NCBI GenBank assembly: GCA_964019425.1 | Contig: OZ025790.1 | Location: forward strand, 682,001 to 746,000 | Direction of reading: 5' to 3' | Origin: Flectonema sp. DT1601 | Taxonomy: Eukaryota | Length of the DNA stretch: 64,000 bases | Shown: piece after piece, positions 61,198 through 63,436 of the stretch | Numbering within the stretch: the stretch's first letter is position 1 | Layout of the letters: each line of letters begins with the position of its first letter | Translations under genes and position numbers: made by a program | The notes under the pieces: generated by a model | The model's database searches: none | Seen by the model: the letters and a program-made list of their open reading frames with translations, nothing else | Told to the model about the DNA's origin: nothing

Positions 61198-63436
61198 TTA
61201 GAGCTTTCTGGTTCTGAGGGCCTTCAGAGCCTTGGCAACTTGCTCGCTGCTGCACTCGTTCTCAAAGAAGGTTCCCTGAGCGTCCTGCTCGCACTGGCCA
61301 ACTGGCTGGGTGCTGCTGGTGGCGAATCCACTGCAGGTGGTGGAGGTCAGGTAGTCCTTCATCACCAATCCAGCTGAGGTGCAGCTCTCAACCATCGCGG
61401 AACCTCCTCCGGCGGTTGGAAGACACTGGCCAACTGGGAACGAGTGGGACTCACATCCCTGGCTGCATGCTGAGTCGGTGCACTGCTTCTGGGTGAATGA
61501 ACCCGATGGAGGACCTGGTGATGGAGGGGTTGGTGGTGGGGATGGTGGAGTTGGTCCACTTCCCGACACCTCCGAGGTACATGGAGAGTTCTTCAACAAG
61601 CACTGGTTCGATCCCCTGGACACTCTGATGTATCCGGACTCTCCCCAGCTTGCTCCCCAAGAGTTCTTGATGATCCAGTAGTCAGCACCGTATCCAACAA
61701 TGAGCACTCCGTGGTCGAGTTGCTTGGACTCGCAGTTGGTCATCACTCCTCCGGTGTATGTCTGCCATGAGGTCGCGTCAACGGCAATCGAAAGCGGTCC
61801 GTTGGTTGACACCCAGGTGGCCATCTCGGTTTCGTCGTGTGCGATGTCCTTGTGTCCGCTGATGGTGGTTCCGACAGTCATCGAAGACACGTCCTTGCAG
61901 CTTCCGGAGTCTCCTCCTCCGCTGGTGTATGGGTACGACTCTTCGGTGACAATCTGTCCCTTGTGTGCACTTAACAACCATTCGAAAGCTTGGTCCATTA
62001 ACCCTCCATTGCAGCCATATAAATGTATTTTCTAGTGCCAAGTAAAAGATATGGCAATAAACGGATACCGTCCCCCAGGCCGTTCCAGTGGAGCACCAGG
62101 TTGGCACAGTCGGAGGATGCGGTCCAGGTAGGTTAAGGTGGCTACCACACCCAAAAGTCCACAGCAGAGTAACAAAGTCGTGCTCGGGCCGTAAAGGCTA
62201 GCGGTACGTGTTTTCGCCCGCGACAAGCCGTGTGATTACGGTACAGGACGGGGTCAACCGCACTTAACAGTCGGATTCCATTGGTACAATCAGGAAGATA
62301 CCCCTACTCGCATGGAGGAGCAAGCCCCTAAGGAGATATGTGTTTTTCACAACATGACAACACAATTAACAAGAATACAGCACGGGCGTGAGGAAAAGCC
62401 GTAACATGGAAAGTAGGAATAAAAATTAAAAGGTGTGAGGAAGGGTTTCATTCTCCACACTTAATGTGAAGGTGTACCAAGGATTACGCGCATGGGTTAA
62501 CCGACACGTGATGAAACCAACGGGCTGGGGAGACAACAAGGGACGGAGCCGAAAACGGCACCCCCCGAAGGGGCACGCCACAAAAGAAAATAAAAACCCG
62601 GGTGATCTTGTAAGGCTCCAGATCTATAAAGTTCCGGGCCGGTTCACCCCCTCTGGCAGTATGTCGTTGCTGTCGCCTGTTGGTCGTTAGACCGAAGGAG
62701 CTACCGGGAAAATAAAAAGGAAAGTAACAGTCAAAACTTCGAGAGGTGACGCTCCGACCGCGCCCCGAGTTATACCAGAAAACAAAATAAAGGAAAAAGT
62801 TAAACGGGATGCCAGGTTTTGTGCACCTTTTCACCCCCAGTTGGGGGTTACCCCTACATCCCACAGTAGGTAAGGCCCAAACACGCGGTCCTGGCCCCCG
62901 CGGAATGTTAACCCTCCATTGCAGCCAGAATCGGTTTTGTCACATGAAACAAGTTCCTGCTCTGAGACGGATGTCAACTTGTTACCAGCAAGGAAGTTCT
63001 GTCCTTCAATTCCTCCGGTGGTGGAGAACGCCCAGCACGATCCGCACTGAGCCTGGTTCTTCACCTGGGTCACGGCTCCCTTGCTTCTCCAATCAACAGC
63101 GTCGGCAGCAGCTCTGTTCTGTGACTCACTGAACATCTTGGCTGGGCCAGCCTTGGTAGGAACGTTCAGGCTGTGGTACACTTTGAACTCATCAGCGCTC
63201 AGGTCAGAGTAAACGTTCATTCCGAAGCTCGCTCCAGGGTTTGAAGCCTCCAGCTCAGCTCCCTTCATCATGTTGTTCTTGAAGATCGATCTTCTCTTCA
63301 CTTCGTCAGATCCGGAGTACTGCTTTCCGTAGGTCTCCTTGTAGTTGCTCCACAACAGACCCTCGTTCTCCTCAACGTAGCTGAGGGGAAGGGCCGAGGT
63401 GGCCGCGGCCATGGCGAGCATGCAGGCAGTCTTCAT
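61198..63436 (-). pseudogene. Cysteine protease copy C, interrupted in the GCNGGLM motif by an 890-bp insertion plus a 20-bp duplication
   Basis: Spans 2239 bp versus 1329 bp for the intact copies (difference 910 = 890+20); split into ORFs 62831-63436 and 61198-61998. Confidence 0.88.
62018..62907. mobile_element. 890-bp non-autonomous insertion flanked by a 20-bp direct repeat TTAACCCTCCATTGCAGCCA (61998-62017 and 62908-62927)
   Basis: Copies A and B show the empty site with one 20-mer. The insert has no terminal inverted repeats, no poly(A) and no convincing ORF. Confidence 0.88.

What the first reader, a model, noticed from the sequence alone, without database searches (positions are those of the whole stretch)
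61998..62927. 890-bp non-coding insertion with a perfect 20-bp duplication in the conserved GCNGG motif of the protease
Seen: the empty site in copies A and B and the filled site in C; no TIRs, LTRs, poly(A) tail or coding capacity. Known: long TSDs fit target-primed reverse transcription, and euglenozoan LINEs have short non-autonomous partners (RIME/ingi, NARTc/L1Tc). Inference: a recently active, possibly undescribed SINE-like element. Removing the insert plus one repeat would restore the ORF exactly, so non-canonical intron-like excision should be tested. The 20-mer has no AG|GT register, so canonical splicing within it would shift the frame.
Basis: partly seen in the sequence, partly recalled or inferred. 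Interest (0 to 1): 0.7.

Follow-up and report, generated by a model that had tools for sequence, protein, structure and literature searches.

The report
Retroelement pair targeting cathepsin protease genes
An 890-base non-coding insert breaks a protease gene of a marine protist (likely a diplonemid); the same insert, and a cut-down copy of a neighbouring LINE jumping gene, break related protease genes at the same codon, so it is likely the passenger of a retrotransposon that aims at one conserved spot in this gene family.

Summary
Observation confirmed: an 890-nt non-coding insert between exact 20-nt repeats interrupts a cruzipain-like cathepsin L gene; two otherwise identical copies are empty.

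The insert is not a one-off. Predicted proteins from three protease subfamilies (61-81% identical to each other) stop at GCNGGL and run into the same insert-encoded tail. Contigs of two public runs join its other end to a different paralog in the same register.

A fourth subfamily is broken at the same codon by a 5'-truncated copy of the endonuclease/reverse-transcriptase LINE that lies at 22008-28470 of this window. That family has intact 1,577-aa ORF2 copies, and three of four long LINE-bearing contigs match contigs with broken cathepsin genes by length.

Best reading: a young non-autonomous element, likely moved by this LINE through target-primed reverse transcription into a preferred site. 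Shared ends, copy number and strictness of targeting are untested, since no genome was held. Intron-like excision has no support. Precedents are the trypanosome RHS hot spot and TcTREZO, so this is a new variant of a known kind.

The parts
62018..62907 (-). 890-nt non-coding element; sense strand inferred to be the gene's strand (5' end at 62907, 3' end at 62018)
   Evidence: for bounds and lack of ORFs; orientation inferred by analogy with the LINE copy at the same junction
62908..62927 (-). First copy of the 20-nt target duplication (codons for G-C-N-G-G-L), at the element's inferred 5' junction
61998..62017 (-). Second copy of the 20-nt target duplication, at the element's inferred 3' junction
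   Evidence: two of these positions differ in the paralog seen in runs X1 and X2
62831..63436 (-). 5' half of cathepsin copy C read through into the element: 201 aa, stop 25 codons after GCNGGL
   Evidence: the same protein is on 2 public contigs
61198..61998 (-). 3' half of cathepsin copy C, 266-aa ORF from the Met after GCNGGL
19961..21289 (-). Cathepsin L-like gene copy A, intact, empty site at 20761-20780
30544..31872 (-). Cathepsin L-like gene copy B, intact, empty site at 31344-31363 (I29, Peptidase_C1, DUF3586)
22008..28470 (-). Rearranged, broken copy of an APE-RT LINE (part of ORF1, most of ORF2); both natural ends replaced by internal duplicates; candidate autonomous partner family
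25997..26038 (-). LINE stretch that, read out of frame, gives the 13 residues and stop that follow GCNGGL in protein P0257

Best explanation
The insert is one copy of a young 890-nt non-coding element that recurs at the same codon of several cathepsin L-like genes, and it is likely moved by the reverse transcriptase and endonuclease of the LINE family also present in this window, which would cut this site with a 20-nt stagger and copy the RNA in by target-primed reverse transcription. Shown: exact 20-nt duplication and empty sites; the same 5' junction in three subfamilies; the same 3' register in a second paralog; a 5'-truncated LINE at the same 5' junction (within 2 nt) and in the gene's orientation; intact LINE ORF2 copies over 99% identical. 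Inferred: that the LINE protein mobilises the short element, the element's orientation, the nick positions, and that the multi-copy protease family serves as a low-cost landing site. Each filled gene would make a 201-aa product that keeps the catalytic Cys region but lacks the His/Asn half, so it is likely a dead copy.
For: (1) Of 26 proteins read in five cathepsin clusters, 15 are whole, 5 end at GCNGGL plus a foreign tail, 4 are second halves starting at the next Met, and 2 break elsewhere. One of the 5 is the window's own and one was found by searching with the tail; 3 were found without selecting on it. (2) Four of the 5 tails are the insert's own 25 codons, unchanged, although the host halves of the three subfamilies are only 61-81% identical; 4 of the 5 filled copies are 99-100% identical to an empty member of their own subfamily. 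(3) In runs X1 and X2 one contig each carries the element's other end into a different paralog in the same register, with 6 other letters, including the base next to the element and the fourth base. (4) The fifth tail (P0257) matches the window's LINE 13 of 13 residues plus the stop, and P0320, on a contig of the same length, starts at the first start codon after that junction. (5) Four intact 1,576-1,577-aa ORF2 proteins on 5 contigs; 3 of the 4 LINE-bearing contig lengths above 100 kb equal lengths of contigs with broken cathepsin halves.
Against: No sequence shared between the insert and the LINE: best DNA match in the window E 0.57, best ORF2 match E about 0.1. The window's LINE copy has lost both ends and the UTRs of intact copies were not seen, so the link rests on the shared site only. 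Most evidence is predicted proteins, with contig length as a stand-in for contig identity. The 5' duplication copy in other paralogs was not seen as DNA, and the last 17 residues before the junction are the same in all filled copies, so conversion is not excluded on that side. No poly(A) or other tail. 0 of 45 further cluster members from other subfamilies or species break at this site.
Confidence: 0.62

Rival explanations
1. Hot spot, different driver: the site attracts several retroelements (a loose endonuclease consensus or a fragile site), and the short element is dispersed and moved by another family, such as a CRE/SLACS-like element with a restriction-like endonuclease.
For: No sequence link to the LINE. 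Trypanosome ingi/RIME and L1Tc/NARTc show only relative site specificity yet fill RHS genes at one site (passages of PMC7563717 and PMC5814959). SLACS-type RTs are abundant in Diplonema. My searches looked mostly inside cathepsin genes, so they favour this site.
Against: The only element junctions seen in public contigs (1 in X1, 1 in X2) are in a cathepsin paralog, though only 18 of 101 loose ends were shown. The LINE co-occurs with broken cathepsins on 3 of 4 long contigs.
Confidence: 0.2
2. One insertion, spread between paralogs by gene conversion or unequal crossing-over; no repeated targeting by the short element.
For: The genes lie in recently duplicated arrays (copies A, B, C identical); the protein sequence next to the junction is the same in all filled copies. 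P0247 and P0266 may well be duplicates of one event.
Against: In the X1/X2 paralog the first and fourth bases beside the element differ from the window's, so a tract would have to end exactly at the element's edge. Hosts are as little as 61% identical. It does not explain a second, different element at the same codon.
Confidence: 0.1
3. A non-canonical intron (euglenid or hemistasiid type) or otherwise excised insert that leaves the gene working.
For: Removing the insert and one repeat restores the ORF exactly. Such introns exist in two hemistasiid diplonemids (PMC12621601, parts 1-2 and passages). The element's 5' end can pair with the repeat at -15 kcal/mol.
Against: That pairing is not unusual: 47 of 870 element windows and 194 of 2,000 shuffles do as well. 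None of the 31 in-frame GT/GC-AG options restores the protein. The LINE copy at the same site is kilobases long and coding. A 7,854-codon neighbouring ORF has no intron. Identical empty copies make repair unnecessary.
Confidence: 0.05
4. Assembly artefact.
For: The window holds a 20.8-kb duplication at 99.9% identity; the window's exact junctions were not seen in the runs laid.
Against: The element is in contigs of three studies, one a marine metatranscriptome, and its tail is fused to different paralogs on different contigs.
Confidence: 0.03

Closest known systems
RHS hot spot of Trypanosoma with ingi/RIME and L1Tc/NARTc (PMC7563717, PMC5814959; passages read)
   Same: Euglenozoan; an APE-type LINE and a short non-autonomous element both insert at one position in a protein-coding multigene family and leave two gene halves.
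   Different: Target here is the conserved GCNGG codons of a papain-family enzyme. Duplication is 20 nt (9 nt reported for L1Tc in the passage read; 12 nt for ingi is recalled). No poly(A), no Pr77/HDV-like fold found, and ORF2 has no RNase H hit and has a separate ORF1, a CCHC knuckle and Cys/His repeats.
TcTREZO of Trypanosoma cruzi (one passage each in PMC5814959 and PMC3155523)
   Same: Site-specific element of about 1.5 kb found mostly in pseudogenes of a protein family (MASP).
   Different: TcTREZO is described as tandem and built from pieces of other genome regions; this element is single at its site, 890 nt, with a candidate LINE partner. No sequence comparison was possible.
Target-specific APE-type LINEs (Tx1 and R1 clades) and their passengers, e.g. 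Tx1-Mar with SINEU-3 (PMC4640811 introduction; PMC4494074 passages)
   Same: APE endonuclease, fixed target in a multicopy sequence, and a short element tied to its LINE by shared target rather than shared sequence.
   Different: Listed targets are rRNA, snRNA, tRNA, spliced-leader genes, microsatellites, telomeres and other transposons, in animals for these two clades. Here the target is a protein-coding motif in a protist. Clade membership was not tested.
CRE/SLACS/CZAR (PMC12278014 passages)
   Same: Euglenozoan, site-specific, with duplications of variable size.
   Different: They use a restriction-like endonuclease, target spliced-leader genes and end in poly(A); the candidate partner here has an APE domain.

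Membership tests
Non-autonomous non-LTR retroelement (SINE-like, broad sense) | Short, non-coding, no LTR or TIR | tested here: met
Non-autonomous non-LTR retroelement (SINE-like, broad sense) | Several copies at separate loci | tested here: met
   Same tail on 4 distinct proteins in 3 subfamilies, 5 contig counts; second junction in X1 and X2
Non-autonomous non-LTR retroelement (SINE-like, broad sense) | Target-site duplication against an empty site | tested here: met
   20 nt at this locus; both copies not seen together at any other locus
Non-autonomous non-LTR retroelement (SINE-like, broad sense) | 3' end shared with a partner LINE, or poly(A)/simple-repeat tail | tested here: inconclusive
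   No tail; no match to the LINE parts held; LINE UTRs not available
Classical SINE (Pol III, RNA-gene head) | tRNA, 5S, 7SL or snRNA-derived head with A and B boxes | tested here: not met
   No Rfam hit better than E 1.4, no tRNA, one A-box-like 12-mer on the + strand and no B box (box patterns recalled)
ingi clade (RIME, NARTc, SIDER; ingi, L1Tc) | Pr77 head with HDV-like ribozyme | tested here: inconclusive
   0 hits with my own descriptor, which had no positive control; none in Rfam; Pr77 itself not compared
ingi clade (RIME, NARTc, SIDER; ingi, L1Tc) | Poly(A) tail | tested here: not met
   Longest A or T run 5
ingi clade (RIME, NARTc, SIDER; ingi, L1Tc) | Autonomous partner with APE, RT and RNase H | tested here: not met
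   P0322 has APE and RT, no RNase H hit; some distant relatives do carry RNase H
CRE/SLACS clade | Restriction-like endonuclease; insertion in spliced-leader RNA genes | tested here: not met
   Candidate partner has APE; site is a protease gene
Target-specific LINE (Tx1/R1-like behaviour) | Same position in independent target copies | tested here: met
   4 subfamilies, 2 different elements, one codon
Target-specific LINE (Tx1/R1-like behaviour) | Most genomic copies at the target | not testable with these tools
   No genome held; contig-length overlap 3 of 4 is only a hint
Target-specific LINE (Tx1/R1-like behaviour) | RT phylogeny inside Tx1 or R1 | not tested
   No named reference set; PDB hits to R2 and L1 are equally weak, E about 1e-14
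Non-canonical intron of euglenids/hemistasiids | Strong pairing of the two ends | tested here: not met
   Within the range of shuffles
Non-canonical intron of euglenids/hemistasiids | Removal from mRNA | not testable with these tools
   Only contigs were served; a spliced copy C would be identical to copies A and B
DNA transposon, MITE, solo LTR, TATE/VIPER | TIRs with short fixed duplication; LTR ends; or no duplication | tested here: not met
   VIPER and TATE make no duplication (PMC12278014)

The most novel reading that the evidence does not exclude
An undescribed, still active lineage of sequence-specific APE-type LINE whose main niche is the conserved GCNGG codons of papain-family protease genes, with the 890-nt element as its internally deleted or passenger form: a retrotransposon that uses an enzyme gene family the way R2 uses rDNA, in a euglenozoan, with C-terminal Cys/His repeats as a candidate targeting module.
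Probability: 0.35. Interest if true: 0.8.

Novelty: new variant of a known kind. Interest (0 to 1): 0.62.

Why it matters
Known target-specific retrotransposons mostly aim at RNA genes, simple repeats or other transposons; the protein-coding exceptions I found are trypanosome RHS and MASP genes. A LINE and passenger aimed at a conserved enzyme motif would widen that list, give an APE-type case outside animals with intact near-identical ORF2 copies ready for a cleavage assay, and help explain turnover of cathepsin genes in diplonemids. If it is only a loose hot spot, it is a diplonemid parallel of RHS and of modest interest.

Tried and rejected
Rfam: 2 hits, E 1.4 and 3, chance. Whole-element folding z -2.1 on the gene strand and 0.1 on the other, 20 shuffles each; none of 11 local windows on the gene strand below z -1.6, one of 11 on the other at -2.5: no clear structured RNA. 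Hammerhead core absent. Metagenome scan with one insert frame: 1 locus of 399 pattern matches, a deleted bacterial group II intron sharing 41 nt at 78%, rejected as a seed-selected chance match. No match in phage records, viral contigs or prokaryote genomes. Search for short cathepsin fragments: 1 of 124 ends at the site with a foreign tail (P0122); 6 start at the next Met, which is uninformative. Run X4 laid nothing, and the window's own junctions and the 5' junction were not covered in X1-X3; neither is evidence of absence. Depths were not used for copy number. The TTAA and telomere-like letters at the end of the repeat suggested piggyBac or TATE; rejected for lack of TIRs and because of the 20-nt duplication (piggyBac ends recalled). 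ESM Atlas gave no answer. Earlier scan notes: nothing on this element or genome; five unrelated notes.

Full report
Observation. The 20-nt repeat is exact at 61998-62017 and 62908-62927 and encloses 890 nt; the same 20-mer occurs once in each of two other gene copies. The three coding regions are 100% identical once the insert and one repeat are set aside. The gene is a papain-family protease with I29 prodomain and the DUF3586 extension. The named eukaryote hits closest to it are Diplonema papillatum proteins, so the host is likely a diplonemid; this is an inference. The insert has no terminal repeats, no A tail and no credible ORF, no Rfam or tRNA match and no second copy in the window. Read-through gives a 201-aa product that stops 25 codons into the insert.

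The element recurs at one site. No genome was held, so I used two indirect routes. First, 3 of 7 listed public runs, from three studies, hold part of the insert. In X1 and X2 one contig each runs from the insert's 62018 end into a protease gene that is not the window's: 6 other letters, among them 62017 and 62014, and a loose end that I translate by hand to a paralogous stretch. A marine metatranscriptome has a 202-nt piece with 2 changes and 1 gap. Second, gene callers leave a signature when this site is filled: a protein that ends GCNGGL plus the insert's tail. A search with the junction found P0122, 57% identical to the window's protein over the first half. Reading five clusters in full (26 proteins) gave 15 whole, 5 broken at this codon, 4 second halves and 2 broken elsewhere. 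Four of the 5 carry the insert's 25 codons unchanged. In a tree of the first halves, 4 of the 5 filled copies sit with empty members of their own subfamily at 99-100% identity, while filled copies of different subfamilies are 61-84% identical; P0122 has no close empty relative in the set. This fits several recent insertions, not one old one. P0247 and P0266 may be one event duplicated. Among 45 further members of ten other clusters none breaks here, so I have no sign of the element in more distant genes or species.

A LINE uses the same site. The fifth protein, P0257, has a different tail. It matches, 13 of 13 residues plus the stop, an out-of-frame reading of the LINE at 26038 on the minus strand of this window. 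So a LINE copy cut off near ORF2 residue 361 joins the protease gene at the same codon boundary, within 2 nt, in the gene's orientation. P0320, on a contig of the same length, starts at ORF2 residue 374, the first start codon after that point. The family has four intact ORF2 proteins of 1,576-1,577 aa on 5 contigs, over 99% identical, with APE and RT domains, a CCHC knuckle and C-terminal Cys/His repeats. Of six known contig lengths for the LINE, three (634,926, 475,405, 461,604) are also lengths of contigs with broken cathepsin halves; that is 3 of the 4 above 100 kb. Equal length is my stand-in for the same contig. The nearest other 50% cluster is 42% identical over the C-terminal half; 546 relatives were found, none named, so the clade is open.

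What is not shown. The insert shares no detectable sequence with the LINE parts held. The window's LINE copy is broken and has both ends replaced by internal duplicates, so it cannot show whether the UTRs are shared, and it does not sit in a cathepsin gene. My routes look mainly inside cathepsin genes and so favour this site; copies elsewhere would be missed. Both copies of the duplication were seen together only at this locus.

Mechanism. Most likely (0.62) the LINE protein nicks the bottom strand just before the Gly codon, primes reverse transcription on the element's RNA, and cuts the top strand 20 nt downstream, after the Leu codon; fill-in gives the duplication. The truncated LINE with up to 2 nt of microhomology is what incomplete first-strand synthesis usually leaves (general knowledge). 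The orientation of the short element and the nick positions are inferred from the LINE copy. Long duplications by target-specific APE elements (R1Bm 14 nt, Tx1L 23 nt) are recalled, not checked. Rivals: a hot spot with another driver (0.2), spread by conversion (0.1), a non-canonical intron (0.05), an artefact (0.03). Against the intron: none of 31 in-frame GT/GC-AG joins restores the protein, and end pairing is matched by 194 of 2,000 shuffles.

Comparison with what is known. RHS genes of trypanosomes take ingi/RIME at one site, and TcTREZO lies mostly in MASP pseudogenes (passages of PMC7563717, PMC5814959, PMC3155523). The original RHS paper was not held. Reviews list the targets of specific elements as RNA genes, repeats and other transposons (PMC4640811 part 1 of 5, PMC8869645 passages), and tie SINEU-3 to Tx1-Mar by shared target (PMC4494074 passages). 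SINE-LINE pairs commonly share a 3' end (PMC3747384 passages). The D. papillatum genome paper reports many LINE-1-like and SLACS RTs and says rigorous element annotation is still to be done (passages); its Additional file 1, with the repeat section, was too large to read and could bear on novelty. The trypanosomatid survey lists four clades (PMC12278014 passages). Six full-text searches (listings only) showed no paper on an element aimed at cysteine protease genes; Repbase and subscription journals were not searched.

Verdict. Real, recent and more interesting than first read: a short element and a LINE meeting at one conserved codon of a protease family. It works like a target-specific LINE with a passenger, but fails the tests for classical SINE, ingi clade and CRE clade. 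New variant of a known kind; interest 0.62. Strict specificity has probability about 0.35 and would deserve 0.8.

Noticed in passing
window 36872-60436 and 3-19208 (- strand): Giant intron-free ORF of 7,854 codons with many RTX calcium-binding nonapeptide repeats in its C-terminal part (29 stretches) and no Pfam hit in the first 4,500 aa; present in two near-identical copies.
   Followed up: partly
window 1-20780 and 41229-62017: 20.8-kb duplication at 99.9% identity: a very recent tandem duplication or uncollapsed haplotypes.
   Followed up: no
window 22008-28470: The LINE copy is a patchwork (22008-22513 repeats 24606-25102; 28156-28449 repeats 26252-26545) and sits between two copies of a 4-kb segment (17937-22007 and 28471-32619), creating a truncated giant-gene start fused to LINE sequence; looks like template switching during repair or insertion.
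   Followed up: partly
window 22514-22930 (- strand), ORF2 residues 1429-1530: Three Cys/His-rich repeats at the C-terminal end of ORF2 without a Pfam match; a similar pattern is in 35 of 150 relatives, some of which also have OTU or RNase H domains.
   Followed up: partly
L001:1-720: A bacterial group II intron with an internal deletion that appears to join an RT motif to the end of the maturase, judged by eye.
   Followed up: no
proteins P0130 and P0265: Two cathepsin copies broken at other positions; the P0265 tail is not from the insert or the LINE; cause unknown.
   Followed up: partly
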